From an uncultured Nitrosopumilaceae archaeon (lineage in GTDB: Archaea; Thermoproteota; Nitrososphaeria; Nitrososphaerales; Nitrosopumilaceae): DNA of 29,515 nucleotides. The position numbers and the translations under genes were made by a program. Below the pieces are notes generated by a model. It worked only from the letters and a program-made list of their open reading frames with translations. It was not told the origin of the DNA and did not search any database. This document shows, in pieces, positions 3,526-17,450 of this stretch (positions within the stretch are counted from its first letter, which is position 1; every line of letters starts with the position of its first letter). The stretch lies in assembly GCA_964531195.1 (NCBI GenBank), contig CAZHDX010000002.1, positions 1 through 29,515 of the forward strand, read 5' to 3'.

Positions 3526-3894
3526 ATGCCAAGAATAGTTCACTTTGATATTCCTGCAGATGATCCAGCAAGGGCTCAAAAATTCTACAAGGAGATATTC
3601 GGATGGAATTTTGACAAATGGAACGGTCCTATGGAATATTGGATGGTAAAGACAGGTGAAGACAAACAGCCAGGAATTAATGGCGGATTAACAAAAAGGA
3701 TGCAAGGACAAGTAGGCATGACCAATACTATCGACGTTCCTTCAGTAGATGAATTTGCAAAAAAAATTCAATCCAATGGAGGAAAAATAATAATGCCAAA
3801 GACTGCAATACCGACTGTAGGATATTTTGCTCAATGTCTTGATACTGAAGGAAATATTTTTGGGATAATTCAAATGGATGAACACGCAAAATAG
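3526..3894 (+). CDS. VOC family (glyoxalase/bleomycin-resistance) protein
   Basis: IVHFDIPADDPARAQKFY..IFGW, INGGL and DTEGNIFGI motifs; 122 aa. Confidence 0.92.
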   Translation: MPRIVHFDIPADDPARAQKFYKEIFGWNFDKWNGPMEYWMVKTGEDKQPGINGGLTKRMQGQVGMTNTIDVPSVDEFAKKIQSNGGKIIMPKTAIPTVGYFAQCLDTEGNIFGIIQMDEHAK

Positions 3895-3906
3895 TTCTTC
3901 TCTCAG

Positions 3907-3946
3907 TAACAATGTTAGTTAACAAAGTGCCGTAATTCTTTATTAA
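3907..3946 (+). promoter_or_regulatory. 40-bp shared operator/promoter, copy 1 (upstream of the wHTH regulator)
   Basis: TAACAatGTTAgtTAACAAAGTgccgTAATTCTTTATTAA; the TATA-like TTTATTAA ends 22 nt before the ATG at 3969. Confidence 0.8.
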
Positions 3947-3968
3947 AACAATTTCAAAGTAAACTCCA

Positions 3969-4304
3969 ATGAATTCTAATAACAGTATTCAAAATATTCT
4001 TGAGCCACTACAAAGTAGACCTAAACAATCTTACAGGACTGGAACAGGAATAATTCTAGAGATTTTAGATGTGGTAAAAGATCGCGGCATACAAGGAGCA
4101 AAAATCTCTGAAATTGCAAGAAAAGCTAACTTGTCTCACTATGTAACACTTGAGAAATGTGAGAAACTAAAAGACATTGAACTGCTAAAATCAATACCTG
4201 ATAAAAGAAATCGTATGTACATGATTACAGAAAAAGGAATAATGTTTTATCAAAGAATTGAAGAATTTCTTGAAACGGTCAAATCGATTGGAATTCGGAT
4301 CTAG
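3969..4304 (+). CDS. Winged helix-turn-helix transcriptional regulator (archaeal HTH_45/ArsR-like)
   Basis: RTGTGIILEIL...KISEIARKANLS helix-turn-helix followed by the wing Y.ITEKG; 111 aa. Confidence 0.85.
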   Translation: MNSNNSIQNILEPLQSRPKQSYRTGTGIILEILDVVKDRGIQGAKISEIARKANLSHYVTLEKCEKLKDIELLKSIPDKRNRMYMITEKGIMFYQRIEEFLETVKSIGIRI

Positions 4305-4367
4305 AATTTTTTAAGTATTATTAAAATAAATTCTTTAGTCTAAAAATAAAAAAGGTTGGAAGATGTT

Positions 4368-4919
4368 TTATTCGTAGCTAGATGGAGTGGTTTGAGATGG
4401 AGATGATTGCGATGGAGCCTGTGAAGGATATCCATTTCCAGGGAATTTCATCATGCCGTGGAACTTCATCATGCCATGGCCGTGCATTTTTCCCATGCCT
4501 TCCATTCCAAACATTTCACCTGAACCCATCTGACGGCCTTGAGAGGTGTACAATACATTACCGTTTCCTGCATCTACTATTACTTGATATGCCATGGACT
4601 TGTCATCAACTATAGTAAACATGTAGACAAGGGATCCTTGGACAATGGCGAGTCTTCCACTTATCACATTACCGTTAGGAACTTTCGAGACAGCCGCATT
4701 AGCAGCATCAACAAATTTTTCTTTGATATTTGATTGTATTAGATTCGGGAGATTAATTGAGCCCTGAATCTGTGGTATTTTTTGTGATGTCCCTGTAGTT
4801 CCAGTAGAGTTGGAAGTTTGAGCCATGACATTTGTTGCTGTTAGAAGTGATGCAACAATTACAACTCCTAAAATTGTAAATGTCTTCCAGTTTTTGAGCT
4901 TGCTTAGATTTTGGGTCAT
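4368..4919 (-). CDS. Secreted PepSY-like domain protein with a His/Met-rich and Ser/Pro/Gln-rich tail
   Basis: Signal peptide ending ...NVMA; PepSY-like 'AANAA.......G....LVY.F.I.......YQVIVDAGNGNVL'; tail MFGMEGMGKMHGHGMMKFHGMMKF. Confidence 0.8.
   Translation of the reverse strand: MTQNLSKLKNWKTFTILGVVIVASLLTATNVMAQTSNSTGTTGTSQKIPQIQGSINLPNLIQSNIKEKFVDAANAAVSKVPNGNVISGRLAIVQGSLVYMFTIVDDKSMAYQVIVDAGNGNVLYTSQGRQMGSGEMFGMEGMGKMHGHGMMKFHGMMKFPGNGYPSQAPSQSSPSQTTPSSYE
4442..4477 (-). repeat. 18-bp tandem duplication encoding HGMMKF twice
   Basis: On the plus strand GGAATTTCATCATGCCGT / GGAACTTCATCATGCCAT, 16 of 18 bases identical. Confidence 0.75.
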
Positions 4920-4944
4920 GTTCTGATTTCGAGACAGCAGTCAA

Positions 4945-4984
4945 TTAATAAAGAATTATGCAACTTTGTTAGTTAACTATGTTA
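4945..4984 (-). promoter_or_regulatory. 40-bp shared operator/promoter, copy 2 (upstream of the PepSY-like gene)
   Basis: The minus strand reads TAACAtaGTTAacTAACAAAGTtgcaTAATTCTTTATTAA, 33 of 40 identical to copy 1, ending 25 nt before the ATG at 4919. Confidence 0.8.
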
Positions 4985-5100
4985 GTCAGTATGGGTAGTA
5001 TCCATGCTATGCAACCATTAAATTCTACCTACACGTATGAAAAGTTGTTACAAAATATTTCTAATTATAAAATTTTACGAATTTTTCCTTTGGTGATATC

Positions 5101-5373
5101 ATGGATAAGGTAAAATTTTTTTCAATTTTCCTGCCTGTACTAATTGGCCTAGCATTTCTTTTTAGAATATTGATACCTGTTGTCATTGCAGCAGTTGCAA
5201 TTTGTGTTGTCACAATGGTCCTGTTTGGAACAAGAAACAACAACAAAATTTTCAGAAAAATTGGATCAAGAGGTCCTACAAACTTTGTTTGCCTTGACTG
5301 CGGTTTTTATCACAGCGACGAAGTTTGTCCTAAATGTGGCTCTAAAATCAAAAAATACTACAGTAAATCCTAG
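5101..5373 (+). CDS. Small membrane protein with a C-terminal zinc ribbon
   Basis: Two hydrophobic segments followed by CLDC-x8-CPKC. Confidence 0.75.
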   Translation: MDKVKFFSIFLPVLIGLAFLFRILIPVVIAAVAICVVTMVLFGTRNNNKIFRKIGSRGPTNFVCLDCGFYHSDEVCPKCGSKIKKYYSKS

Positions 5374-5411
5374 AGGAAAACATATCAAGCAAGCATACAA
5401 CATTATTTTCA

Positions 5412-5552
5412 ATGTCCAATGAGAAAAAAAGGATGAAAACAACACAAGAAGACTATAACCACGCCTTAGCTTCAGATGATCCGACGAAAATTTCAAAAGA
5501 AGAGCAAGAAAGACTTACTCGAGAAGCGATAAAAAAATTCAAATCCTTATAG
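5412..5552 (+). CDS. Putative 46-aa charged microprotein MSNEKKRMKTTQEDYNHALASDDPTKISKEEQERLTREAIKKFKSL (not in the ORF track)
   Basis: ATG at 5412 to TAG at 5550-5552. It fills most of the gap between two co-oriented genes and has a purine-rich, helical composition. Confidence 0.5.
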   Translation: MSNEKKRMKTTQEDYNHALASDDPTKISKEEQERLTREAIKKFKSL

Positions 5553-5649
5553 TGAATAAAAAACCAGGAAAATAATGCGTATCATGAATTATCTGATTTG
5601 GATGTGATTTGGAACAAGGTAATTATAGAAAAAAATCCATACACTAGAC

Positions 5650-6156
5650 ATGGACGAGAAAAAATATGAAAAGGCAACCTTTGCAGCAGGCTGCTTTTGG
5701 GGAGTAGAAGAGGCTTTTAGATTAACAAAAGGAGTCAAGTCAACTATGGTTGGGTATACCGATGGAAAATTAAAGAATCCTACGTACCACGATGTATGCT
5801 CAGATATGACAGGACATGCAGAAGCAATACAGATAGAATATGATCCCGATGAAGTCTCTTATGAAAAACTTCTAGAACTTTTTTGGTCAATTCACGATCC
5901 AACTACAATAGATAGACAAGGACCGGATATTGGGTCTCAGTATCGTTCCATGATTGCGTTTCATACTAATGAACAAAAGGAATTAGCAATAAAATCAAAA
6001 GAAGATCTTGAGAAATCTAGAGTCTTTCATGACAAAATTGTGACTGAAATTGTACCGGTAACAATTTTCTACAAGGCTGAAGATTACCACCAAAAATATT
6101 ACATGAATATAGGTGGAGGTAGTTGTTACATTCGACCTATGACAGAGGGGGATTAG
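5650..6156 (+). CDS. msrA: Peptide-methionine (S)-S-oxide reductase
   Basis: Active-site GCFWG, plus [20 protein letters not shown] and AEDYHQKY motifs. Confidence 0.97.
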
Positions 6157-6160
6157 AAAC

Positions 6161-6568
6161 TTGGCACAAAAAATTTTCAAATCTGACAAGGAATGGAAGG
6201 AACAATTAACTCCTGAACAATATCATGTGACAAGGAAAAAAGGAACAGAGATGCCTTTTACAGGAAAATATGTATCTACAAAAGAAGAAGGCATGTACAA
6301 ATGCATCTGTTGTGGAAACATTCTTTTCATGTCTAAAGATAAATTTGATTCTGGTACCGGATGGCCAAGTTTTTCCAAAACCGCTGAAAATTCCAAAATT
6401 GAAGAGCATGCTGACAATAGCTTTTCTATGCAAAGGACAGAAGTCATATGCGAAAAATGCGGTGCGCATCTTGGGCATGTCTTCGATGATGGACCTGGAC
6501 CCACAGGACTGCGATATTGTATCAACTCCTGTGCTCTCAGCCTTGAAAAAGATCCTAATTCAAAGTAA
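6161..6568 (+). CDS. msrB: Peptide-methionine (R)-S-oxide reductase, Zn-binding type
   Basis: [23 protein letters not shown] and RYCINS motifs, with two CxxC pairs. TTG start 4 nt after msrA. Confidence 0.97.
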
Positions 6569-6627
6569 TTTAAAAACAATATCTAACATTTAGTAATCTC
6601 TAAAAATATTGTAAGTTGAAAAATATT

Positions 6628-7530
6628 ATGAAATACTTGGTTTCGGGAGCTACTGGTTTTATCGGATCAGAACTAGTTAAACAATTACTGGAATCTGGAA
6701 ATGAGGTAACATCACTGGTGAGAGACGAATCGGCTGCAAATCCACGATCTCAAATAATTGTTGGGGATTTAACCAGTAAAAACCTGCAATTTTCTCAAAA
6801 CTATGATACAACATACCATTTAGCTGCTCTTACCCCCCTTGAAAAAAATAAGAAACTTTTAAGAAAAGTAAATTATGACGGAACTAAAAATCTGTTTAAC
6901 GCAGTAAAAGAAAAAACAAATTCATTTGTATATATCTCAGGATTGGCCATATTTGATTCTGCAAACGTCATAACTGAAAATACTTCAAAAAATCCAGATA
7001 TAGAATTTGTCAAAATACGAATTGAGGCAGAGGAATTCCTTAAACAAAATTGCAAGGATGCAGGGATTGATTTTACTGTCGCATATCTTGGTGACATGGT
7101 CTATGGAAATGGAGGGATTTTTAGAACCATGTTTATCGACAGGCTGCAAAAAGGGAGCTTTAGAATTCCAGGCAACGGAAACTATTTCAAAAATTTTATA
7201 CATTTGGAGGATGCAGTCGGCAGTTTAATTACAATTGCAACAAAAAATGCGACAAATACTTCGTATGTTATAACGGATTCCAATCCAGTAACATTAAAGG
7301 AGTTTGTGAATTTTGCTGCAGAACAACTTGGCGTTAAATTACCAGGAACAGTTCCATTATTTTTGGCAAAGATTGCGCTAGGAAATGATCTAATAAAATT
7401 ACTTACTAGATCTATGAAAGCATCAAATGAAAAAATACGGAAAATTTACGAATTCAAATATCCTTCATACAAAGAGGGAGTGCATAGTGTCATATCTGAA
7501 TTAAACCATAATGAGAAAAAAAATGTCTAA
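6628..7530 (+). CDS. NAD-dependent epimerase/dehydratase family protein (atypical extended SDR)
   Basis: Rossmann motif YLVSGATGFIG, HLAA, VNYDGT.NL and FIHLEDAV. I prefer the ATG at 6628 over the TTG at 6616. Confidence 0.88.
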   Translation: MKYLVSGATGFIGSELVKQLLESGNEVTSLVRDESAANPRSQIIVGDLTSKNLQFSQNYDTTYHLAALTPLEKNKKLLRKVNYDGTKNLFNAVKEKTNSFVYISGLAIFDSANVITENTSKNPDIEFVKIRIEAEEFLKQNCKDAGIDFTVAYLGDMVYGNGGIFRTMFIDRLQKGSFRIPGNGNYFKNFIHLEDAVGSLITIATKNATNTSYVITDSNPVTLKEFVNFAAEQLGVKLPGTVPLFLAKIALGNDLIKLLTRSMKASNEKIRKIYEFKYPSYKEGVHSVISELNHNEKKNV

Positions 7531-7583
7531 CTATCAAGCAAATCTGATAAAAACGATCTTAAAATTATAGTGATATTTTAGCA

Positions 7584-9176
7584 ATGCAGATGGCTAGCGC
7601 ACAACTAAGCTTGGCTTATTTTATCAATACTTACTCCAAATATCTAATTCCTGCAATTTTATTTTTAGGCTCATTTCTGATTTATTCTTACAATTTGGAA
7701 GGACAACCTTGGCATGGTGATGAAGTAGTATATCTTAGCTGGGCAGGAAATTATATTGATCTTATAAACAAAGGTGATTTTAGTAATCCTTGTCTTCTAT
7801 CTCTTGATAATTGCAGTTCAATATATCATATTCCTGCATACGGTCTCACCTATAGTCCTGTCAGAAATTTATTGATTGGATATCCATTGGATACGAGACA
7901 ACAGGTAAGTGGTGATTTTTACCATTGGGGATGTTATTGGCAATGTGTTCAGAATTTTGATTTGCCTACGTTACAAGAGATGACAGCAGGACGTCTTCTC
8001 TCTCCACTTTTTGGAGCATTGACCATTGCAATTTCTTTTTTGATTGGAAAAATGTTTTTTAACAAACAAGTTGGAATAATTTTTTCACTTCTTTTTCTTT
8101 TCTTTGATCTTTGGTTATGGTATAGTAGAACCATAATGACAGAGGTTCATTATGTTTTTTTTAGTATGCTATCATTCTTCCTTTTGCTTTATGCATTCAA
8201 AACTGGTCAATTAAAAATTAGATATCTCGTGTTAAGTGCTATTACATTTGGATTTGCTCTGACGTCAAAGATGTTATCAGTAGAATTTGGCATATTATTT
8301 GTCGGCATTATTTTATTTGGAAATTTATTTAAAAAAGACAAGGGCTTTTCTTTGAACAAAGTAAAGATTAGAAAAACATCTATGGTTGTCTTGCTTTTTT
8401 TTGGAATTGCAGGATTGTCGTTTTTTTTGACTCTGCCTGGGTTTTATCAAGACCCTCTGCACCAAATTGCATTGACAAAAAATGACATGGATAATTATAA
8501 TCGTGATGTATGGTACATTGGATACCCCACAGTTCACAATATTCAGATAAAAAGCATAGTTGATGTTTCTCATTACGTTTTTTTCCCTCCCCTAGAATCT
8601 CTTGTAACTGTTTCTGATTCTGAACCATCTAGAAATTCTGCCTTGATTCCAATAACCTATTCTAGTATACCTATGAGCATCTTTTTTTTCGTTGGATTAG
8701 GATATCTAACCTATAGGCTAAAAAAATTCAAAAATTATCCACAAGAAGGTCTACTCTTGGTCTGGTTTGTCAGTACATTTTTTTTCACACTTTTAATGGC
8801 AAAAGATTTCTCGCTTGAAAGATATCTTTTGCCCTTTTTGGTGTCAGTTATTTTTATTGCATCTTATGGATTCTGGCATTTTATAAACAGATTACTTCTT
8901 TACAAAACAAAATTTGTTTTTTCAGCATGTTTTGTCATTACTCATTCCGTTGTGGCGTTGTCATCTTGGCAAGAACTCTATTTTTCTCCTAGCATGAAAT
9001 GGACGAATCCGCTTTCCTTTGGAACCTTGCAGAGCTCCTTTGACAATGCTATTACAATTATTGTTAATTCGCTATTTTTAGGATTTTTAATTATTATAGT
9101 TATTATAAAATTGCAAAGGAGAGACAGTCATACCGTAATCTCTAAATCTACCTCTACTGCAAATCAAGAGAAATGA
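7584..9176 (+). CDS. Polytopic membrane glycosyltransferase (GT-C fold; ArnT/PMT GT39-like)
   Basis: Acidic 'HGDE' motif after TM1, GRLLS.LFG..T, SR.IMTE...FF, ALTSK and ERYLLP motifs; about 12 hydrophobic segments. Confidence 0.85.
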   Translation: MQMASAQLSLAYFINTYSKYLIPAILFLGSFLIYSYNLEGQPWHGDEVVYLSWAGNYIDLINKGDFSNPCLLSLDNCSSIYHIPAYGLTYSPVRNLLIGYPLDTRQQVSGDFYHWGCYWQCVQNFDLPTLQEMTAGRLLSPLFGALTIAISFLIGKMFFNKQVGIIFSLLFLFFDLWLWYSRTIMTEVHYVFFSMLSFFLLLYAFKTGQLKIRYLVLSAITFGFALTSKMLSVEFGILFVGIILFGNLFKKDKGFSLNKVKIRKTSMVVLLFFGIAGLSFFLTLPGFYQDPLHQIALTKNDMDNYNRDVWYIGYPTVHNIQIKSIVDVSHYVFFPPLESLVTVSDSEPSRNSALIPITYSSIPMSIFFFVGLGYLTYRLKKFKNYPQEGLLLVWFVSTFFFTLLMAKDFSLERYLLPFLVSVIFIASYGFWHFINRLLLYKTKFVFSACFVITHSVVALSSWQELYFSPSMKWTNPLSFGTLQSSFDNAITIIVNSLFLGFLIIIVIIKLQRRDSHTVISKSTSTANQEK

Positions 9177-9760
9177 AAGGCCCATATTTTTCAATAATTT
9201 TTATTTTTTGCATAGTAACTGTGAATATTGTTTTACCAGAGGTTTTTGCAGATGTCAAAGGAGTTCCCTTTCAACTGAAAATCAACCAAACAACATCCTT
9301 AGAGTCTAACGCTATCAAGATTACATTTTTGAATGTAACCTCAGATTCTAGATGTCCCTCTGATGTTACATGTATCTGGCAGGGTGAAGCCAAGATCTTT
9401 GTCAACATAATAAAAGACAATAATGATTTAGGTAACTTCAATCTAACAAGCAGAGCTGGAGCACAAGATCTTGCAATCCAATCTTTTGATGGACATTCAA
9501 TCCAATTGGTAACAATCGATCCCTATCCATCAAGCAAGAAGCAAATATTGCCCTCCGATTATACTGCAACTTTTATAGTTTCAAAAACAGGTCTCTTGTC
9601 TCCTCTAAAACAATTCAAGTCCGGAGTTGATTCAAAAGACATCCAATGCAGAGAGGGTCTTAGACTTGTGCTCAAGGCTGAAAATAACACTCCAGCCTGT
9701 GTAATGCCAACAAGCGCTCAAAAACTAGCAGACCGTGGATGGGCATTGCCGATAGCATAA
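9173..9760 (+). CDS. Secreted protein with a 'DSRCP.DV.CIW.G.A' domain and a C-terminal PLKQ-C-C-RGW module
   Basis: Signal peptide ending ...VFA; ATGA overlap with the upstream stop; module at 9599-9745. Confidence 0.8.
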   Translation: MKGPYFSIIFIFCIVTVNIVLPEVFADVKGVPFQLKINQTTSLESNAIKITFLNVTSDSRCPSDVTCIWQGEAKIFVNIIKDNNDLGNFNLTSRAGAQDLAIQSFDGHSIQLVTIDPYPSSKKQILPSDYTATFIVSKTGLLSPLKQFKSGVDSKDIQCREGLRLVLKAENNTPACVMPTSAQKLADRGWALPIA

Positions 9761-9782
9761 TGTATGAATTCAAAGAACCTAA

Positions 9783-10334
9783 TTAGATAAAAAATGGTCT
9801 TTGCTCATATTGTTTCAAAATTTCATTTATTCCATCGATGATTTTTTGAATCCCTGGGACTTTAGATTTGTTTTGTATCAAATCAGGTTTTATTATATTA
9901 AGATAATGAATTTTCTTTTTTATCACTTTTATTCTCTTTGATTTTGATATTGGCAAGTTTCTGATGTCTTTAAGATTTGCAGAAATGTCGCAAAGTTTGA
10001 TTAGTTTTGCCTCCCATGATGCTTGTTGCAATTGTTTTACATATTGTTGCTCTTGCTGTCCTTTAGGCAAGTTTTTATCTTTTGTCAATGACAAAACTAG
10101 GACTGCTATTTTGCTACCAAATATCTGCTCAATGTCATCAAATGTTGAGTTTGTATCTTTGATAGTATCATGTAACCAAGCAGCAGATAAAATATCATCA
10201 TCAGCCATTCCAAGATTTTTTAGTCGATTTACCACATTTTCAAGATGATTATAGTAAGGAGTCATTCCATCCTTTCTTTTCATTCCAAGATATTTTTCTT
10301 TAGCATAAAGTTCTGCATTTTCCAGTTTTCCCAT
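9783..10334 (-). CDS. HD-domain protein, Mesh1/small alarmone hydrolase-like (HD_4); the HDxxED motif reads HDTIKD
   Basis: RK.G..PY..H...V, AAWLHDT, V..LTKD and KLCD..NL motifs of RelA/SpoT hydrolase domains. Confidence 0.85.
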   Translation of the reverse strand: MGKLENAELYAKEKYLGMKRKDGMTPYYNHLENVVNRLKNLGMADDDILSAAWLHDTIKDTNSTFDDIEQIFGSKIAVLVLSLTKDKNLPKGQQEQQYVKQLQQASWEAKLIKLCDISANLKDIRNLPISKSKRIKVIKKKIHYLNIIKPDLIQNKSKVPGIQKIIDGINEILKQYEQRPFFI

Positions 10335-10358
10335 CTCTTTTCTTAAAATATATTAAAA

Positions 10359-12818
10359 TCAAAAAGATTTTGATCGCTTGCTTGGAGGAATCCATCTTTT
10401 CAGTATCAGTGAACTACTTGTAACAGAGACTGAACTAGCTGCCATTGCGAGTCCTGCAAGAGCTGGATAAAGCAATCCAAATCCAGCAATTGGTATTAGA
10501 ATTGCATTATATACAAAAGCGTAAAAGAGATTTTGCTTTATCTTCAATACCGTCTTTTTACTTATCTCAATTGCAGTAATTACATCTTTAAGATCATCTC
10601 GCAAAAGAATTACGTTTCCTGCTTCTATTGCAATATCAGAACCACATCCTATAGTGATGCCAACATCGGCCTGAGTGAGAGCAGCTGCATCGTTTATACC
10701 GTCTCCGACCATAGCAATCTCCTTTCCTTGCTTTTGGAGCTGTTTAATTACATCAACCTTTTGAGAAGGAAGAACGTTTGCAATTATTCTATCGATTTCA
10801 AGTTCCTTTGCAATTGTCTTGGCAGCCCTTTCATTGTCACCTGTTAGCATCACTACCTCCATACCCATCTTTTTCAATTTCTGCAATGTTTCCTTGGAAC
10901 TACTTTTTGGTGGATCAAATAGAGCAATTATGCCAACTAGTTCTCTGTCAAGTGCAACCAATACTGCAGTCTTTCCTTGTTCTTGCAATTTCTCAATCGA
11001 ACTCTCTGCTGTTTTTACATTGACATTGTTTTCTTGCATGAATACCGTATTTCCGACAAGAATGGTGATTTTATTGAAAACTGTTTTTACTCCTTTTCCC
11101 GGATTTGAAAAAAAATCTGTTGAATCAGAAATTTGAAGTCCAAATTCTTTTGCTTTTTGCACAATTGACTTTGCAATAGGATGTTCCGAGTTTTTTTCAG
11201 CAATAGCTCCAAGCTTAAGCATTTCATTAATGTTATTGTCATCACCAGATGCTTGCGTTATTTGTCTTAATGATATCAAATCAGTAACTTGAGGTGATCC
11301 TTGTGTTAGTGTGCCTGTCTTGTCAAAGACTGTTGTCTTTATTTTTCCTAGGATCTCAAGCGCCTCACCTCCCTTGAATATCACACCATTTTGAGCACTC
11401 TTACTCATTCCGACCATGACTGCAGTGGGTGTTGCAAGACCCAATGCGCAGGGGCATGCCACCACAAGTATTGCTACTGACGGGATCAATGCTGTTGCAA
11501 TAAGATGTGCATCTGCAGTTGATGTAAAATACCAACCTAGGAATGCAGCAAAGGCAGTTGCCATTACTATGAACGCAAAATATCCTGCAACTTTGTCGAC
11601 TAGTCTCTGCATGGGTGGTTTTCTTCCCATGGCTTCTTCTACAAGTTTTACAATTTGGGCAAGCATTGTATCACTACCGACTTTTGTTACATTTACAACA
11701 AGGACTCCTTCGCGATTGATGGTTCCGCCAATTACAGCATCTCCAGCTTTTTTATTTACAGGTATGAATTCACCTGTGATCATAGATTCATCAACAGCTG
11801 AATTCCCTTCAAGGACTATACTATCTACAGGGATCTTCTCTCCTGGCCTTATAGTAACTACATCACCAATCCTGAGTTGATCTATTGGTACGTCAATTTC
11901 TTGGCCATTTTTTGTCATTCTTGTTGTCTTTGGCTGAAGTTCTAACATTTTCCTTATAATTGAGGAAGCTTTTCCCTTGGTTTTGTTTTCAAGATATTTT
12001 CCTAAAATTATAAAAGTGATCACGAATGCAGCTGCATCATAGTAGAGATTGTGCCATGTTAATACTGGAAATGTGTTGAAAACGCTAAACAAATACGCAG
12101 CAGTGGTCCCAACCACTACTAGAGTATCCATATTAGCAGATTTCATTCTTGATATTCTGTAAGCTCCGATGTAGAACCTACTACCGCTTGCAAACTGGAC
12201 TACACTTGCACACACAAAAACAACATAGGCAGCAGTTGAAGTTCCTGCAAGTGGAATGAATCCTAGATATTCTGGGTAACCAAAAATCAATATGGGTATT
12301 GTAAATACGATTCCAATCAGAAACAATTTCTTGAGCTTTTTTGCTTCCAATTCTTCAGTGGATGTGGCCAGGTCCTCGCTTATGATTTGGTAGCCATTTC
12401 TGCAGATTATCTGTCTTATATCTGAGAGAGACAATAGCGCTTGATTATATTCTACTAGAACTTGGCCGTTTCCGAAATTTACAAAAGCATTTTTTATACC
12501 TTCAAGTTCTTTTAATCTAGTTTCAAGCGTAGCTGCATCACTTGAATCAGTCATATTGATTATTTTTGCTGATAATTTCTCATAAACTACATTATATCCT
12601 GCATCTTGAACAGCACTTTCAATATCAGACAAGTTTACTATCAAGGGATCAAATTCTAATGTTGCTTTTTCTGCTGCCAAGTTTACTTCGCATTTTTTTA
12701 TTCCATCCAATCCCATGAGATAATTTTGAATAGAGTTTACACATCCGGCACAATGCATGCCACTTATCTTAATGGCAGTTCGTTTTGTTTGGAATTCTGC
12801 AGGTACGTTCTTTATCAC
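10359..12818 (-). CDS. copA: Cu(I)-translocating P1B-type ATPase
   Basis: N-terminal GMHCAGC HMA domain, TGE actuator motif, CPC in the membrane, DKTGTLT phosphorylation site, EHP, GDGINDA, and the YN and MAASS signatures of P1B-1 ATPases. Confidence 0.95.
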   Translation of the reverse strand: MIKNVPAEFQTKRTAIKISGMHCAGCVNSIQNYLMGLDGIKKCEVNLAAEKATLEFDPLIVNLSDIESAVQDAGYNVVYEKLSAKIINMTDSSDAATLETRLKELEGIKNAFVNFGNGQVLVEYNQALLSLSDIRQIICRNGYQIISEDLATSTEELEAKKLKKLFLIGIVFTIPILIFGYPEYLGFIPLAGTSTAAYVVFVCASVVQFASGSRFYIGAYRISRMKSANMDTLVVVGTTAAYLFSVFNTFPVLTWHNLYYDAAAFVITFIILGKYLENKTKGKASSIIRKMLELQPKTTRMTKNGQEIDVPIDQLRIGDVVTIRPGEKIPVDSIVLEGNSAVDESMITGEFIPVNKKAGDAVIGGTINREGVLVVNVTKVGSDTMLAQIVKLVEEAMGRKPPMQRLVDKVAGYFAFIVMATAFAAFLGWYFTSTADAHLIATALIPSVAILVVACPCALGLATPTAVMVGMSKSAQNGVIFKGGEALEILGKIKTTVFDKTGTLTQGSPQVTDLISLRQITQASGDDNNINEMLKLGAIAEKNSEHPIAKSIVQKAKEFGLQISDSTDFFSNPGKGVKTVFNKITILVGNTVFMQENNVNVKTAESSIEKLQEQGKTAVLVALDRELVGIIALFDPPKSSSKETLQKLKKMGMEVVMLTGDNERAAKTIAKELEIDRIIANVLPSQKVDVIKQLQKQGKEIAMVGDGINDAAALTQADVGITIGCGSDIAIEAGNVILLRDDLKDVITAIEISKKTVLKIKQNLFYAFVYNAILIPIAGFGLLYPALAGLAMAASSVSVTSSSLILKRWIPPSKRSKSF

Positions 12819-12865
12819 TCAACTCACAATAGAATAATAACCAAACGGGTATACTTAATTTTGGT

Positions 12866-12883
12866 ACTTTACAATTGTAAAGT
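12866..12883. promoter_or_regulatory. Perfect 18-bp palindrome ACTTTACAATTGTAAAGT, the likely operator in the divergent copA/regulator promoter
   Basis: Exact self-complementarity in a 94-nt intergenic region, between TATA-like elements facing each direction. Confidence 0.7.
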
Positions 12884-12912
12884 GTATAATAGAGATAGAT
12901 CTTCTAGAAATT

Positions 12913-13335
12913 ATGCCGCTAAAATTGGATGAAACTGACATTGCGATACTAGAATCACTTCTCAAAGATGGAAGAAAGTCATTTAGGCAGGTATCAAGGG
13001 AGATAAATGTAAGCACCCCCACTGTAAAGACCCGATATCAGAGACTCGTCAATATAGGTCTGATAAAGGCTGTCTTGCCTGATATTGATTTAGGAAAACT
13101 AGAAGAAAAGACTAGCAGTAAGTTAGACTACATTCGCGAGAAGACAATCAAGAAGCATCCAATAAAACTTGACAAGGGAACTCTTGTGAAGCTTTCGTGT
13201 GATTATTGCAAGGGATCTGTACACGGAAAACCAAGCATACTAAAAATTGCAAATTTGGAGAGGTTTTTTTGTTGTACATCTTGTAGGTCTTTGTATCAAG
13301 AAAAATACAAGAGAAGGATTGAATCTCTGAAATAA
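12913..13335 (+). CDS. AsnC/Lrp-type HTH regulator with a C-terminal TRASH/YHS metal-binding domain (archaeal CopR/CopT-like)
   Basis: LDETD..IL..L.KDGRKSF...SR...VS.PTV..RY.RL HTH, then CDYC...RFFCCTSC; divergent from copA. Confidence 0.85.
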   Translation: MPLKLDETDIAILESLLKDGRKSFRQVSREINVSTPTVKTRYQRLVNIGLIKAVLPDIDLGKLEEKTSSKLDYIREKTIKKHPIKLDKGTLVKLSCDYCKGSVHGKPSILKIANLERFFCCTSCRSLYQEKYKRRIESLK

Positions 13336-13656
13336 TGAACTAATTTGAATGTCTTATTTTAACCTGATACCCTATTTGCAAAGGGATTGTTTTTCGAATC
13401 ATATTAATTGACAAATCTTTTTCAATTCATTTGTCTAAATATCATATGGATTATTGTTCAATGGACAAAATTTCAGATTGTGGTACTTCGTCGTTTTTAT
13501 CCATGTGAACTTTTAGTCGCTGTGGGTAACAACTCATAACTAAATATGACTAGACGTTGACAATAACACGAGTGTGTATTTGTCAATAACATACAAATTA
13601 TGAACAAAATTTGCAAATTTATAAAGCATTAAAAACTCATCTTGTTACAATTACAC

Positions 13657-13902
13657 ATGAGTTCTGATCATGATTCTCAGATAGAAAACATAGCCTCTCA
13701 GATAGTGTCTGATAGAATTTCACTTGATGAACAAGACCCAAAGAAATTACAAAAATATTATGATTATGCAAAAAATCACTTTAAATTACAAGAAGATTTT
13801 GCGATCCAACTAGTAAATGAAGCCTTTTTGTATCTGAAATTAAAAAGCTCAGATTTTGATCCTCTGCAACAGGGAGATAAATTTGGGGCTGGGTTTAGCT
13901 AA
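13657..13902 (+). CDS. Small acidic hypothetical protein (about 81 aa)
   Basis: ATG at 13657 about 30 nt after TTTATAAA; clean ORF with typical codon usage. Confidence 0.75.
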   Translation: MSSDHDSQIENIASQIVSDRISLDEQDPKKLQKYYDYAKNHFKLQEDFAIQLVNEAFLYLKLKSSDFDPLQQGDKFGAGFS

Positions 13903-13962
13903 GTAATATCATAAAAATTCTGATCATTCAATTTTTATCTGAGTGAAATTTTCATTTAATTA

Positions 13963-14493
13963 TTGTCTGTTGATTTGATAAATTCCGTCAAAAAACTCAT
14001 TGATTTAGGCAAAGGAGATCCTGGCAGACTCGAATACATACTTGATATGCTAACAAATGACAGAATACTACCTTTATCTGATCAGAAATATTTAGAAAAC
14101 ATACTTTCTCTTAATTTTGAGGAAAAAGGCGTCCTAGAAACAAAAAATGATTTGGCAGTAGAAAATTTGCAAAAACAAGTACAAGATCTCAGTCAAAAGC
14201 TTGCAATTCTTGAGAAAAAAGGGTTTGAGAAATATATCGGCAAAAAAACTATATTATTTTTTATAACAGTTTTTGTTGGCTGGAATGCTTTAGCCTCAAT
14301 CATTTCCGTATTTTTCGATTTATTTCTACCAGATACCACAATAGAGAATCTTTTTCCTTTAAACTTGGTTGAAAAATACCTTGATTTTTCCATAGTAGAG
14401 TTTGTATTTACTGCTCTGATTTTTGCATGGGTCTTTATTGGCTTTATCCATCTTGTAAGATTCATCAAGTCAAGAAAAATTTCTAACATTTAG
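13963..14493 (+). CDS. Membrane protein with an N-terminal 'GDPGRLEYIL...SDQKYLE' domain, a coiled coil and two TM segments
   Basis: 176-aa ORF with hydrophobic segments ILFFITVFVGWNALASIISVFF and FVFTALIFAWVFIGFIHLV. Confidence 0.75.
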   Translation: MSVDLINSVKKLIDLGKGDPGRLEYILDMLTNDRILPLSDQKYLENILSLNFEEKGVLETKNDLAVENLQKQVQDLSQKLAILEKKGFEKYIGKKTILFFITVFVGWNALASIISVFFDLFLPDTTIENLFPLNLVEKYLDFSIVEFVFTALIFAWVFIGFIHLVRFIKSRKISNI

Positions 14494-14497
14494 AAAA

Positions 14498-14517
14498 TTG
14501 ATTTTGATTAAAATCAA
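14498..14517. terminator. Hairpin between convergent genes, possibly a bidirectional terminator
   Basis: TTGATTTT-gatt-AAAATCAA, 8-bp arms inside the 31-nt gap between stops at 14493 and 14525. Confidence 0.5.
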
Positions 14518-14524
14518 CAACGTG

Positions 14525-15031
14525 TTATTCTAGTAGCTTTTTTAAGCTCTGAAATTGATTTGGTGTGATCTCACCTTTAGCTAGTCGTTCTTCTAATATT
14601 CGTAAACTTCGTAAATTTACTTGTTTGTCAGCTGACACTGGTGGTGATTCTTTCTTAGGCTCGGTGACAATTTGTGGTTCAGTAATAACTTTTGATTCTG
14701 CAACAACTTTTTGGACAGGTTGTTTTGGAATTTTCTTTTTTCCTATCGCCCCAACAAGTAGCAGACCTGCACCTGCAATTTCAAGTCCCATGAAAGTATA
14801 CTGCATCATGCTTATTACAACTGTTCTTGAGGGATATCCCATTTGTTTTAAAAGAGACATACCTGACGCTTGTGAGCCTCCTCCCATAAACGACATTGCA
14901 TAATGAACCATATTTGCAACCATCATGGGTGTGTACATATATCCTGGAATCGATAATAGTATAAGGAAAACACCTATCATAAATAGCAGAGTTCTCATTA
15001 TTTTTTGAAACGAGGCGTTGCTAATAATCAA
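14525..15031 (-). CDS. Membrane protein with a C-terminal SHOCT-like domain
   Basis: Two TM segments, a P/K/E-rich linker and the ending LRILEERLAKGEITPNQFQSLKKLLE. Confidence 0.8.
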   Translation of the reverse strand: MIISNASFQKIMRTLLFMIGVFLILLSIPGYMYTPMMVANMVHYAMSFMGGGSQASGMSLLKQMGYPSRTVVISMMQYTFMGLEIAGAGLLLVGAIGKKKIPKQPVQKVVAESKVITEPQIVTEPKKESPPVSADKQVNLRSLRILEERLAKGEITPNQFQSLKKLLE

Positions 15032-15105
15032 TTGTTTGTATCAATGCTATACATCTCCCTAAAACAAACCGCAATACTAAACTAATCGCGACGAGTAAAT
15101 AACGT

Positions 15106-15495
15106 GTGTCTGGATTAATTTACCCTATTTTGATTTATGACAATTTGTGCTATTCGTGCACTAGGTACGCAAAAATGGTAAATGATCTAGTGAGAAACCA
15201 ATGCACTATAGTAGGTCACTATACTCCGCTAGGTAAGGAGATCAAAAAGCAACTTTTCCCTACAGACTATGAAGGATTAGAGATGTCTTGGTTCATCATA
15301 GATGGTTACGCTAATGGAGGAAGAGCCGGGTTATTGAGATTGATTCGATACATATTGTTTGAAAGGAAGAAAGGTAAGTATCCAAAAAATGAATTTAGTC
15401 TTACAGAATGTACTACAGATTGTAAAACAGTAAAAGGTGTTTTATTTCGTTCGTCAAGTATAGTTACAATGTATAAGAAATTCAGCATACCTTAA
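15106..15495 (+). CDS. DCC1-like thiol-disulfide oxidoreductase family protein (DUF393-like)
   Basis: N-terminal ILIYDNLCYSC (DxxCxxC) motif; two further Cys near the C-terminus. Confidence 0.65.
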   Translation: MSGLIYPILIYDNLCYSCTRYAKMVNDLVRNQCTIVGHYTPLGKEIKKQLFPTDYEGLEMSWFIIDGYANGGRAGLLRLIRYILFERKKGKYPKNEFSLTECTTDCKTVKGVLFRSSSIVTMYKKFSIP

Positions 15496-15703
15496 AACTA
15501 ATAGGCCAAAGGAGAGCCCACCATACTTCTCTAGCCCACTCCAAGAGAATGTGTCTTTTTTCTGGGGTTGGAGGCGTATTGTATGCACATTCTAAAATAA
15601 AAAGATTCAATTCTAATTGGCTTGCTTATGATTCTGAATTATCTTCCTAATGAATAAATCATACAAGATGGACAAATAAAATGAGTAATTTTATGAAAAA
15701 GGA

Positions 15704-16294
15704 ATGCTTGCTATGACTCTAAAAATTCTGGGCGTTGGTTCTAGCATGAGGAAAGAATCACACAGCACAGCAGCTCTTAAGATTGCACTTGATCATGCCA
15801 AAAATATCGGTGCAGAAATCCATCTTTTGGATTTGAGAGAAGTTCAATTGCCCATGCTTTATTCAAAGACAGAAACTAACGAAATTCAACAAGCAACAAA
15901 CGATGTAGAATGGGCAGATGCATTTATTCTTGCTACTCCAGACTATCATGGGTCAATGTCTGGAACTATGAAAAATTTTCTTGATTATTTTTGGTCAGAA
16001 TTTGCAGGAAAACTTTTTGGATACATCTGTGCCTCCCACGAAAAAGGATTAACAGTAATGGACCATATGAGAACATCTGTTCGCCAATGTTATGGATGGA
16101 GTATGCCATATGGTGTTTCAGTAAGCTCAGAAGATTTTGATGAGAACGGAAATATCCAAAACAAAAGATTATCACTCCGTCTACAAATGCTTTCACGTGA
16201 TCTCTTTACTTATGGGAAATCTATTAGAGAACAATTTTTATCTGATTTAAAAAATGATGATGCTAATACTTTTACTGCACGCTATAGAAAATAA
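15704..16294 (+). CDS. NAD(P)H-dependent FMN reductase (SsuE/flavodoxin-like fold)
   Basis: ILGVGSSMR..S.S, ADAFILATPDYHGSMSG.MKNFLD and GKLFG motifs. Confidence 0.92.
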   Translation: MLAMTLKILGVGSSMRKESHSTAALKIALDHAKNIGAEIHLLDLREVQLPMLYSKTETNEIQQATNDVEWADAFILATPDYHGSMSGTMKNFLDYFWSEFAGKLFGYICASHEKGLTVMDHMRTSVRQCYGWSMPYGVSVSSEDFDENGNIQNKRLSLRLQMLSRDLFTYGKSIREQFLSDLKNDDANTFTARYRK

Positions 16295-16417
16295 AATTTA
16301 TTTTAGAAAAAATTTTTCGTCGAATACAAATTTTATTTAAAAAATATTGTCTGTAACTGTCCTAACATACAATTACAACATTTAAAAAACTATTTTCTCT
16401 ATGCATAAAACTTTAGC

Positions 16418-16457
16418 TAACATTGTTAAGTAGTAAAGCTACGCAACTCTTTATTAA
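16418..16457 (+). promoter_or_regulatory. 40-bp shared operator/promoter, copy 3 (upstream of the secreted helical protein)
   Basis: TAACAttGTTAagTAgtAAAGctacgcAAcTCTTTATTAA has the same spacing as copies 1 and 2 and ends 21 nt before the ATG at 16479. Confidence 0.72.
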
Positions 16458-16478: not shown

Positions 16479-17450
16479 ATGCTTTCACAAACGCAACTTA
16501 ATGCATTAGCTGCATGTGTGTTACTGGTAATTCCAGCTGCTGCATTTGCTGACGATAATGCATCGACAAGAAATGCATCAAATGAATATTCTTATCTTGA
16601 TGCAATGCTTGCAAGAGCAACTTGTCAGACAAACTATGAGACTGGTCTTATTGGTTTTGCAATATCAGATATTGCAAGTATAGATGCAACTGTAATAAGT
16701 TCTGATTCGGCAAAATTAAGCACAGATTTGCAGACACTAAATGCAGATGTCAAAACTGAGAACAAAGTACAATTCAGGACAGATCTGAAATTATTTAGAT
16801 CGGAATCAAAGAATGCAACATTGGACCTGCGTTCTGCAATAAAAAATGCACACCCTACAGACGATGAAAAAGTCAAACTAAAAAGTGACATTAACAGCTT
16901 AAAGCAGAAATGGAAAAGCTGTACATTTGGAGTTGGTCACCAATTGGCCGATTTAAAAATCCATGCTTTTGGAATGGACATACAAAAACTAGAAAATAAA
17001 ACTCGTCACTTGGAATCAAAAGGAGTAAACACAACTCATCTAAATGAGCTAATTACTCGTGCCCAAGCAAATCTTGGTAATCTAACCACCTCGGTTGATT
17101 CAGCAAACGATTCAACTGAATTAAAGGCCGCACTCAAAGGCTATTGTCAATACAATGGCTGTAAAGAAGGAGTAAACTTTCATCTTGCTGCACAGGCATC
17201 TTTGACAGGAAAACAATCCGTATTGGATAAAATTAAATCAAACCCAAATTCGGGGCAATATAGTGAACAAATTGTCAAAGCACAGGCAGATCTGACAAAT
17301 GCAGAAAATATCTTAAATGAGGTTGGAACAAATCAATACACAGAGGAACAAAAGGCATCAGTCTGGGCATCTTTGCATGACGCAGGCGACATCATAAAAA
17401 ACCTATGGATCGAACTTGATGTAAAAATCAATACTACTTTAAATTCATAA
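16479..17450 (+). CDS. Secreted, mostly alpha-helical protein of unknown function
   Basis: Signal peptide ending ...AAAFA; heptad-rich sequence with four Cys in the mature region; 323 aa. Confidence 0.8.
   Translation: MLSQTQLNALAACVLLVIPAAAFADDNASTRNASNEYSYLDAMLARATCQTNYETGLIGFAISDIASIDATVISSDSAKLSTDLQTLNADVKTENKVQFRTDLKLFRSESKNATLDLRSAIKNAHPTDDEKVKLKSDINSLKQKWKSCTFGVGHQLADLKIHAFGMDIQKLENKTRHLESKGVNTTHLNELITRAQANLGNLTTSVDSANDSTELKAALKGYCQYNGCKEGVNFHLAAQASLTGKQSVLDKIKSNPNSGQYSEQIVKAQADLTNAENILNEVGTNQYTEEQKASVWASLHDAGDIIKNLWIELDVKINTTLNS

What the first reader, a model, noticed from the sequence alone, without database searches (positions are those of the whole stretch)
3907..16457. Three-gene regulon defined by a shared 40-bp operator-promoter, probably controlled by the local wHTH protein
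Seen directly: three promoters share identical spacing, TAACA-nn-GTTA-nn-TAACAAAG-n5-TAATTCTTTATTAA. They lie at 3907-3946 (+, wHTH gene), 4945-4984 (-, PepSY-like gene) and 16418-16457 (+, secreted helical protein 12 kb away). Copies 1 and 2 are 33/40 identical; copy 3 keeps the first palindrome, the AAAG and TCTTTATTAA. The core TAAC-n3-GTTA is palindromic and partly repeated in tandem, and it sits just upstream of a TATA-like box 21-25 nt before each start codon. Inference: an autoregulated dimeric wHTH factor binding upstream of the BRE/TATA, a geometry typical of archaeal activators, driving two exported proteins of unknown function. This could be an undescribed envelope- or metal-stress response.
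Basis: partly seen in the sequence, partly recalled or inferred. Interest (0 to 1): 0.72.

Follow-up and report, generated by a model that had tools for sequence, protein, structure and literature searches.

The report
Conserved operator regulon in ammonia-oxidising archaea
Three promoters in this soil ammonia-oxidising archaeon share a real, rare operator that is conserved across that whole group of archaea and marks a set of exported and membrane proteins, but the regulator is more likely a conserved paralog encoded elsewhere than the neighbouring gene.

Summary
The 21-nt operator occurs 3 times in the window against 0.02 expected, and is rare in the 1.5-Mb genome.

It is two tandem 13-bp units, TAAC-n3-GTTA then (T/G)AACAnnG. 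They sit flush against an unusual CAAT/TAAT-type BRE and a TATA box at the genome's normal -30 position, so the mRNAs are leaderless.

The regulon is larger than three genes. It also covers a second PepSY-like paralog, a 29-aa microprotein plus a secreted protein, a DUF7475-like membrane protein and a MacB-type ABC operon.

It is old. The core palindrome lies upstream of PepSY-like genes in 54 of 77 loci from Nitrosotalea to Nitrososphaera and Nitrosocosmicus, against 3% of control windows. In a genome inferred to be N. viennensis the same genes form one cluster.

Both operator-linked regulators are Sso10a/HTH_45 winged-helix proteins. The local gene (A) carries the operator but is a rare accessory paralog. 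A conserved paralog (B, contig C86, co-operonic with a 2-TM protein) sits beside operators and PepSY-like genes across families, so B is the likelier master regulator.

Activator or repressor, and the signal (metal or envelope stress suggested by Met/His-rich tails), remain untested. The earlier notes of this scan that I looked up did not describe this element.

The parts
3907..3946 (+). Operator-promoter 1. Unit 1 is 3907-3919 (TAAC-n3-GTTA), unit 2 is 3920-3932, and the BRE-like TAATTC plus TATA box TTTATTAA span 3933-3946.
   Evidence: PWM score 31.7 bits. The TATA box starts at -30 from the ATG, the genome's modal position. It is conserved at 31.5 bits in front of the 85%-identical ortholog on metagenome contig L269.
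3969..4304 (+). wHTH-A, a 111-aa Sso10a/HTH_45-family winged-helix protein. It is a regulon member and a possible auto- or co-regulator.
   Evidence: Pfam HTH_45 at 41.5 bits against a cut-off of 25.5. The AF2 model has pLDDT 83 and shows a wHTH plus a long C-terminal helix. The best PDB fold match is Sso10a-2, 4HW0. It is 45-52% identical to a conserved clade that keeps the same ANLSHY recognition helix.
4368..4919 (-). PepSY-like exported protein 1 (183 aa). It has an N-terminal signal or anchor, a PepSY-like core and a Met/His-rich C-terminal tail.
   Evidence: Translation. PepSY hit is weak, 17.9 bits against a cut-off of 24. Family alignment A2 shows the H/M/G-rich tail in most members. 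A homolog in the genome inferred to be N. viennensis reaches PepSY at 47 bits.
4945..4984 (-). Operator-promoter 2, with the same architecture read on the minus strand. It drives the PepSY-like gene.
   Evidence: PWM score 29.0 bits. Orthologous PepSY-like genes carry the element in same-genus genomes and across AOA.
16418..16457 (+). Operator-promoter 3. Unit 1 is intact, unit 2 is degenerate (TAGTAAAG), and the BRE-like CAACTC plus TTTATTAA follow.
   Evidence: PWM score only 13.9 bits. Orthologs of the downstream gene in three other genomes (62%, 35% and 35% identity) start right after strong sites.
16479..17450 (+). Secreted 323-aa protein of unknown family with a signal-peptide-like N-terminus. 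It is a regulon member.
   Evidence: Translation. No Pfam or NCBIfam family found. Orthologs with the operator are shown.

Best explanation
The 40-nt element is a binding site for a transcription factor fused to a specialised core promoter.

Architecture:
- Two tandem 13-bp units span about -62 to -37. The first is a palindromic TAAC-n3-GTTA core. The second is a half-conserved (T/G)AACAnnG unit.
- They abut a non-generic BRE-like CAAT/TAAT-TC and a TATA box at -30.
- Transcription would then start at or within 3 nt of the ATG, giving leaderless mRNA.

Regulon in this genome (at least seven promoters):
- wHTH-A, PepSY-like 1 and the 323-aa secreted protein (in the window).
- PepSY-like 2 and a 29-aa microprotein followed by a 240-aa secreted protein (contig C43, divergent pair).
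- A DUF7475-like membrane protein (C9).
- A MacB-type ABC operon (C86).

The same element precedes the orthologous genes across ammonia-oxidising archaea. In a 2.53-Mb genome inferred to be Nitrososphaera viennensis these genes form one physical cluster, so they make up a functional module acting outside the cytoplasmic membrane.

Likely regulator: an Sso10a/HTH_45-family winged-helix protein. The best candidate for master regulator is paralog B (C86:4972-5277). It is co-transcribed with a 2-TM membrane protein that may act as the sensor. The local paralog A is a recently recruited target that may also bind the site.

Shown: the element, its specificity, its conservation, regulon membership, and the gene-neighbourhood links.

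Inferred: who binds, whether binding activates (favoured by the position upstream of the BRE) or represses, and that the signal is a metal or envelope stress (from the Met/His-rich tails and the MacB-type exporter).
For: Specificity:
- 3 matches against 0.02 expected in the window.
- The pattern with up to 2 mismatches occurs only at the window sites and C43.
- PWM hits of at least 16 bits: 11 in the genome, 0 in the control.
- A reversed-pattern control across 41 genomes was near zero, while 7 of 10 other same-genus genomes hit.

Promoter geometry:
- TATA-like words peak at -32 to -27 genome-wide, and the three boxes start at -30, -33 and -29.
- CAAT upstream of the box occurs in only 3 of 56 ordinary promoters.

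Conservation:
- Sites precede PepSY-like, secreted-323, wHTH, microprotein, membrane-protein and ABC genes in relatives.
- The core palindrome is present in 54 of 77 upstream windows of PepSY-like genes across AOA, against 21 of 755 control windows.
- It is present in the 52%-GC genome inferred to be N. viennensis.

Functional module:
- The inferred N. viennensis cluster reads PepSY x3, 2-TM, wHTH-B, DUF7475, ABC ATPase, exported protein, FtsX/MacB permease.

Regulator:
- Of 9 HTH_45 paralogs in this genome, only A (31.7 bits) and B (30.6 bits) have an operator within 350 nt upstream.
- All 10 loci with B orthologs of at least 68% identity hold sites of 26-34 bits.
- B lies in 29 of 80 PepSY-like loci and A in 1 of 80.
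- B-2TM is conserved next to sites in Nitrosocosmicus.
- B-type proteins are abundant, with 1139 proteins at E<=1e-20. A has 11 relatives at E<=1e-15.

Fold: A is Sso10a-like.
Against: - There are no binding, start-site or expression data for this organism.
- Assigning the TF to B rests on gene neighbourhood only. A also carries the operator and sits beside a target here and on L269, so A or both may bind.
- Characterised Sso10a proteins of Sulfolobus bind DNA without apparent sequence specificity (PMC4941522).
- The half-sites of TAAC-n3-GTTA are only 7 bp apart. From general knowledge of the Sso10a structure, not tested here, that is awkward for a rod-shaped dimer.
- Copy 3 is weak by PWM.
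- On a tentative locus-tag mapping, the N. viennensis module rises only 1.5- to 2.5-fold under copper limitation. Copper scarcity is therefore probably not the main signal.
- The assembly is 84% complete, so the regulon list is a lower bound.
Confidence: 0.6

Rival explanations
1. The local wHTH-A (3969-4304) is the regulator, autoregulated, and directly controls the other promoters that carry the operator.
For: - A has the strongest operator score in its own promoter (31.7 bits).
- It is convergent with a target gene, and this arrangement with the operator is conserved on L269.
- Several A-type paralogs in same-genus and neighbouring-genus genomes also carry the operator in their promoters (L007, L010, L022, L026, L032, L045).
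Against: - A is a rare, divergent accessory paralog.
- Members at 68-69% identity sit in another context without an operator.
- 24 of 29 A-type loci in relatives lack a site.
- No close A-type homolog was found in the one Nitrososphaerales genome searched with the A query (Nitrosocosmicus), yet the operator is conserved in that order.
- The ANLSHY recognition helix is invariant in a clade that mostly lacks the operator.
- A lies in 1 of 80 PepSY-like loci, against 29 of 80 for B.
Confidence: 0.25
2. The conserved block is mainly a specialised core promoter read by one of the many TFB/TBP paralogs of these archaea, in the manner of an alternative sigma factor. The CAAT-type BRE would be the key determinant and the upstream palindromes secondary.
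For: - The BRE-proximal CAAT(T/C)nTTTAT is conserved at a fixed distance in nearly all 48 training sites.
- It is not a generic feature, occurring in 3 of 56 ordinary promoters.
- That AOA have expanded TFB families comes from general knowledge and was not tested here.
Against: - The most conserved and information-rich positions are the palindrome at -62 to -50, with 2.25 bits at the C and G positions. From general knowledge, that is far outside the reach of TFB on a BRE.
- In Nitrososphaerales the palindrome is kept while the BRE/TATA part differs.
- This model does not explain the linkage to HTH_45 genes.
Confidence: 0.1
3. Copies 1 and 2 are terminal inverted repeats of a small mobile or recombined two-gene cassette (wHTH-A plus PepSY-like) and not regulatory sites.
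For: The two copies are inverted and flank a 1.08-kb, two-gene segment. They share TAATTC where most other sites have CAATTC.
Against: - Each copy sits at exact promoter distance from a start codon.
- The same element precedes single orthologous genes without the partner gene in dozens of genomes.
- It also occurs at unrelated genes.
- No transposase or target duplication was seen in the ORF list.
Confidence: 0.02

Closest known systems
Sso10a / Sso10a-2 (Sulfolobus; PDB 1R7J, 4HW0), Pfam HTH_45
   Same: Both wHTH-A and wHTH-B hit HTH_45 above the cut-off. The model of A is a winged helix followed by a long C-terminal helix, and its best PDB match is Sso10a-2, with TM-scores of 0.63 (query-normalised) and 0.74 (target-normalised).
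   Different: The Sulfolobus proteins behave as architectural chromatin proteins without apparent sequence specificity (PMC4941522). Here two family members are tied to one defined, conserved operator. One of them is co-operonic with a 2-TM membrane protein. Dimer geometry and binding were not tested.
Archaeal regulators that act from sites directly upstream of BRE/TATA (for example Ptr2, TFB-RF1, EarA, TrmBL1 in its activating mode; from general knowledge)
   Same: The operator occupies about -62 to -37, flush with the BRE, at all promoters. It lies between two BRE/TATA boxes in the divergent pair on C43.
   Different: The protein family is different. Activation is not shown. Cooperative spreading onto the BRE/TATA, which would give repression, is equally compatible with the tandem 13-bp units.
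Promoter motifs of copper-limitation genes in Nitrososphaera viennensis (Reyes et al. 2020, PMC7785015)
   Same: These are also shared upstream motifs at -35 to -70 in AOA genes for exported or unknown proteins.
   Different: The published consensus sequences (TTCSGSMTTTGWACYANT and an AT-rich 27-mer) do not match this operator. On a tentative mapping, the module here changes only mildly in that data set.
MarR/ArsR-type metal or efflux regulators divergent from their target operon (ZitR, AdcR, MexR, SmtB; fold hits)
   Same: The fold is a winged helix. wHTH-B is divergent from a MacB-type ABC operon with the operator in the shared intergenic region.
   Different: These proteins are much smaller and lack the MarR dimerisation helices and known metal sites. 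The putative sensor is a separate 2-TM protein.

Membership tests
Sso10a / HTH_45 family (for wHTH-A, 3969-4304) | Sequence match to the family profile | tested here: met
   Pfam PF14947 at 41.5 bits against a cut-off of 25.5. phmmer to PDB finds Sso10a 1R7J at E=0.013. NCBIfam Sso10a_fam scores only 37.9 against a cut-off of 60, so it is a distant member.
Sso10a / HTH_45 family (for wHTH-A, 3969-4304) | Fold: three-helix winged HTH followed by a long C-terminal helix | tested here: met
   AF2 model with pLDDT 83: helices at 25-42, 46-52 and 57-69, wing strands at 73-76 and 83-86, helix at 88-106. Top Foldseek hits are Sso10a-2 (4HW0) and AF1382.
Sso10a / HTH_45 family (for wHTH-A, 3969-4304) | Dimer through an antiparallel coiled coil | not tested
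   No homodimer job was run.
Sso10a / HTH_45 family (for wHTH-A, 3969-4304) | Abundant, sequence-unspecific chromatin protein | not testable with these tools
   Linkage to a defined operator argues for a specific regulator, but binding was not measured.
PepSY domain proteins (for 4368-4919) | Match to PF03413 above the gathering score | tested here: inconclusive
   The window protein scores 17.9 bits against a cut-off of 24. Homologs of the same alignment family in the genome inferred to be N. viennensis reach 47 and 22.5 bits. Alignment A2 shows a shared core.
Autoregulated transcription factor with its own operator | Operator in the regulator's own promoter, conserved in orthologs | tested here: met
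   A: 31.7 bits here and 31.5 bits on L269. B: sites in the shared intergenic region in 10 of 10 close orthologous loci.
Autoregulated transcription factor with its own operator | The protein binds that operator | not testable with these tools
   This needs EMSA, footprinting or DAP-seq.
   About seven loci in 1.5 Mb, with 0 control hits at 16 bits or more. AATTCTTTATTAA occurs twice in the genome. CAAT-type BRE in 3 of 56 ordinary promoters.
Copper-responsive regulon | Member genes respond strongly to copper status | tested here: inconclusive
   On a tentative mapping of the inferred N. viennensis cluster to NVIE_026980-027050, copper limitation gives log2 changes of +0.6 to +1.3. True copper-limitation genes change by +4 to +7. 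Copper excess was not examined.

The most novel reading that the evidence does not exclude
In ammonia-oxidising archaea, Sso10a-family proteins, regarded elsewhere as chromatin proteins, have become sequence-specific regulators. Paralog B and its co-operonic 2-TM membrane protein would form a transmembrane sensing pair. This pair would govern an AOA-wide extracytoplasmic module through tandem 13-bp palindromes abutting a specialised BRE. The module comprises Met/His-rich PepSY-like proteins, a MacB-type exporter, a DUF7475 membrane protein and a conserved microprotein. Accessory paralogs such as the local gene A would be wired in as a second tier.
Probability: 0.3. Interest if true: 0.75.

Novelty: new member of a known kind. 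Interest (0 to 1): 0.62.

Why it matters
Almost nothing is known about gene regulation in ammonia-oxidising archaea. These organisms drive nitrification in soils and oceans and have no genetic system.

A cis-element conserved from Nitrosopumilales to Nitrososphaerales, with two named candidate regulators and a defined target set, gives a concrete regulon that can be tested directly. EMSA, DAP-seq or transcriptomics in cultured strains would do it.

It assigns a common context to several families of unknown function:
- PepSY-like Met/His-rich exported proteins
- DUF7475
- a 29-37-aa microprotein
- a 2-TM partner protein

It also suggests that the Sso10a/HTH_45 family includes site-specific regulators.

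Tried and rejected
- **Complex prediction.** wHTH-B with its co-operonic 2-TM protein gave no verdict. It is not used as evidence either way.
- **RNA runs.** No RNA holder was listed for window 3800-5100 (the first attempt found the machine busy).
- **NVIE_001850/001860 lead.** In N. viennensis, NVIE_001850 is a strongly copper-limitation-induced exported protein next to the wHTH gene NVIE_001860. I thought this might be the B locus. It was rejected: no B-type match lies near that part of the 2.53-Mb genome.
- **Published motifs.** The N. viennensis motifs of Reyes et al. do not match this operator.
- **Qin et al. 2018** (the N. maritimus stress paper) is not held.
- **Mobile-element reading** of the inverted copies 1 and 2 was rejected on comparative grounds.
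- **Loose pattern.** TAACnnnGTTAnnnnnCAnnG is not specific enough for genome-wide counts, because the control gives about the same number of hits.
- **Extra PWM hits.** C189:491 lies inside a gene and is taken as chance. C110:2779 is intergenic, upstream of phosphoglycerate kinase, has no flush TATA box and is left open.
- **Literature and earlier notes.** The listed results of searches of the held library for PepSY or HTH_45 in AOA showed no paper describing this element. Earlier scan notes did not describe it either.

Full report
**1. Observation**

The three elements read as described.
- Copy 1 (3907-3946, +) and copy 2 (4945-4984, -) are 33/40 identical.
- Copy 3 (16418-16457, +) keeps the first palindrome, the AAAG and TCTTTATTAA.
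- The 21-nt operator pattern with up to 2 mismatches occurs three times in the window, against 0.02 expected from 100 dinucleotide shuffles.
- In the whole assembly (1.51 Mb, 237 contigs, 35% GC, 84% complete) the same pattern adds only an overlapping divergent pair on contig C43.

**2. Anatomy**

I collected 48 non-redundant sites from other genomes. They show a fixed architecture:
- Unit 1, TAAC-A-nn-GTT(A/C)-nn.
- Unit 2, (T/G)AACAnnGT(G/T)nnn, 13 bp later.
- Then CAAT(T/C)nTTTAT(T/A).

The most informative positions are the C and G of the palindromes.

Genome-wide, TATA-like words upstream of long ORFs peak sharply at -32 to -27 from the ATG, so leaderless transcripts are the norm. The three TTTATTAA boxes start at -30, -33 and -29. 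The operator therefore spans roughly -62 to -37 and abuts the BRE.

The BRE-proximal CAAT/TAAT block is not generic. It occurs in 3 of 56 ordinary promoters, and AATTCTTTATTAA occurs twice in the genome.

**3. The regulon in this genome**

A 24-nt PWM built only from foreign sites gives 11 hits of at least 16 bits (0 in the reversed-genome control), at these loci:
- C2:3907, upstream of wHTH-A.
- C2:4961, upstream of PepSY-like 1.
- C43:6033 and 6046. One direction drives a second PepSY-like paralog. The other drives a 29-aa ORF followed 2 nt later by a 240-aa secreted protein.
- C86:5347, between a second HTH_45 gene (B) and an ABC ATPase.
- C9:8110, upstream of a 164-aa membrane protein whose homolog in the genome inferred to be N. 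viennensis is DUF7475.
- C110:2779, left open.

Copy 3 scores 13.9 bits. It is accepted because three orthologs of its gene (62%, 35% and 35% identity) begin right after strong sites.

**4. Conservation**

The operator, with a near-zero reversed-pattern control, is found in 7 of 10 other same-genus genomes. There it lies in front of the orthologous genes.

A scan of public genomes with a PepSY-like alignment returned 80 loci. They include soil Thaumarchaeota MAGs (TA_20, TA_9) as the closest relatives, then Nitrosotalea, Nitrosotenuis, Nitrosarchaeum, Nitrososphaera, Nitrosocosmicus and Nitrosopolaris. The core TAAC-n3-GTTA lies within 330 nt upstream in 54 of 77 usable loci, against 21 of 755 control windows.

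In Nitrososphaerales the first unit becomes a perfect GTAAC-n3-GTTAC and the second unit changes to TnTCAnnnG.

In the 2.53-Mb single-contig genome that I take to be N. viennensis, the module is one cluster. That identification rests on size, genus and gene order and is inferred. The cluster holds three PepSY-like genes, a 2-TM protein, wHTH-B, DUF7475, an ABC ATPase, a 669-aa exported protein and a MacB-type FtsX permease. Operator variants lie in front of at least three of these genes. This independent neighbourhood evidence says that the scattered, operator-marked genes of the window genome belong together.

**5. Which regulator?**

Both operator-linked regulators are HTH_45/Sso10a-family proteins. 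The model of A is a winged helix plus a long C-terminal helix, and its best match is Sso10a-2.

Of nine HTH_45 paralogs in this genome, only A and B have an operator within 350 nt upstream.

*wHTH-A:*
- It is 45-52% identical to a tightly conserved clade with an invariant ANLSHY helix. Most members of that clade lack the operator.
- It has few close relatives.
- The arrangement glyoxalase, operator, A, PepSY-like recurs on one metagenome contig whose A protein is 85% identical. Relatives at 68-69% identity sit elsewhere without a site.

*wHTH-B:*
- It is 52-87% identical across families and abundant in metagenomes.
- It is always followed by a 2-TM membrane protein.
- It has 26-34-bit sites in all 10 close orthologous loci.
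- It lies within 3 kb of a PepSY-like gene in 29 of 80 loci, against 1 of 80 for A.

I therefore favour B as the primary regulator and A as a recruited target, perhaps a second-tier regulator. The shared TAATTC variant of copies 1 and 2, also present on L269, suggests that A's promoter was copied from the neighbouring PepSY-like promoter.

**6. Function and direction**

- The PepSY-like proteins carry Met/His/Gly-rich C-terminal tails in most members.
- The 240-aa protein is His/Met/Cys-rich.
- The transporter is MacB-type.
- A DsbA-like gene follows B-2TM in one relative.

Together these point to an extracytoplasmic metal or envelope function, but this is inference.

The window's copA (10359-12818) has its own divergent Lrp-like regulator and no operator.

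I mapped the inferred N. viennensis cluster tentatively to NVIE_026980-027050. The mapping rests on the order of product names and on a matching count of four genes between two "exported" entries. On that mapping, copper limitation raises four members by log2 0.6-1.3 from low baselines. This is same-direction but modest change.

A position upstream of the BRE is typical of archaeal activators (general knowledge). Cooperative spreading over the BRE/TATA would instead repress. I put activation at about 50%, repression at about 35% and dual action at about 15%.

**7. Comparison and novelty**

- The published AOA promoter motifs differ from this one.
- The listed results of searches of the held library showed no paper linking PepSY or HTH_45 to AOA regulation.
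- Sulfolobus Sso10a proteins are described as unspecific architectural proteins.

This is an undescribed regulon of a familiar kind, a winged-helix factor plus a palindromic operator. Two points add interest: its breadth across AOA, and the Sso10a-family plus 2-TM partner link.

Noticed in passing
G000 contig C43:6106-6195 (L060:2112-2201); also L036, L039, L048: A conserved 29-37-aa ORF beginning MKKxFxFGDxxxKF(D/N)H lies directly behind the operator-promoter in four same-genus genomes. In this genome a 240-aa secreted protein starts 2 nt after its stop codon.
   Followed up: partly
G000 contig C86:4415-4933 and orthologs (L162:1845-2387, L226:1022-1486, L266:8246-8647): A 2-TM membrane protein of no known family always follows wHTH-B. 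It has a conserved cytoplasmic motif before TM1 and a variable, often His/Met- or Gly/Trp-rich outer loop. It is a candidate sensor partner.
   Followed up: partly
window 10359-12818 (-) and 12913-13335 (+): A copper-type P1B ATPase with two N-terminal CopZ-like domains lies divergent from an Lrp/AsnC-like HTH gene. It has no TAAC-n3-GTTA operator, so it appears to be a separate metal-efflux circuit.
   Followed up: partly
whole genome: TATA-like words peak at -32 to -27 from start codons of long ORFs. This implies that leaderless mRNAs are the rule in this organism.
   Followed up: partly
G000 contig C43:6198-6920: The 240-aa secreted protein ends in two copies of a repeat of about 35 aa (IPSW(V/I)KxNAxWW...GIQ(Y/W)L) and has a His/Met/Cys-rich middle part. 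No Pfam family was found.
   Followed up: no
L167:2611-3036 (a 1.8-Mb complete genome of the neighbouring genus): A DUF6659 protein gene carries a strong operator, and further sites lie nearby. The regulon content therefore differs between genera.
   Followed up: no
G000 contig C86:5277 and orthologs: wHTH-B genes start with TTG or GTG just before the conserved EYRDRIYIRKDI. An earlier scan note on another genome (e1-2591819) remarked on the same missing canonical start.
   Followed up: no
G000 contig C110:2779-2802: A 16.6-bit operator-like site lies in the intergenic region upstream of phosphoglycerate kinase, without a flush TATA box. It is unclear whether it is functional.
   Followed up: partly
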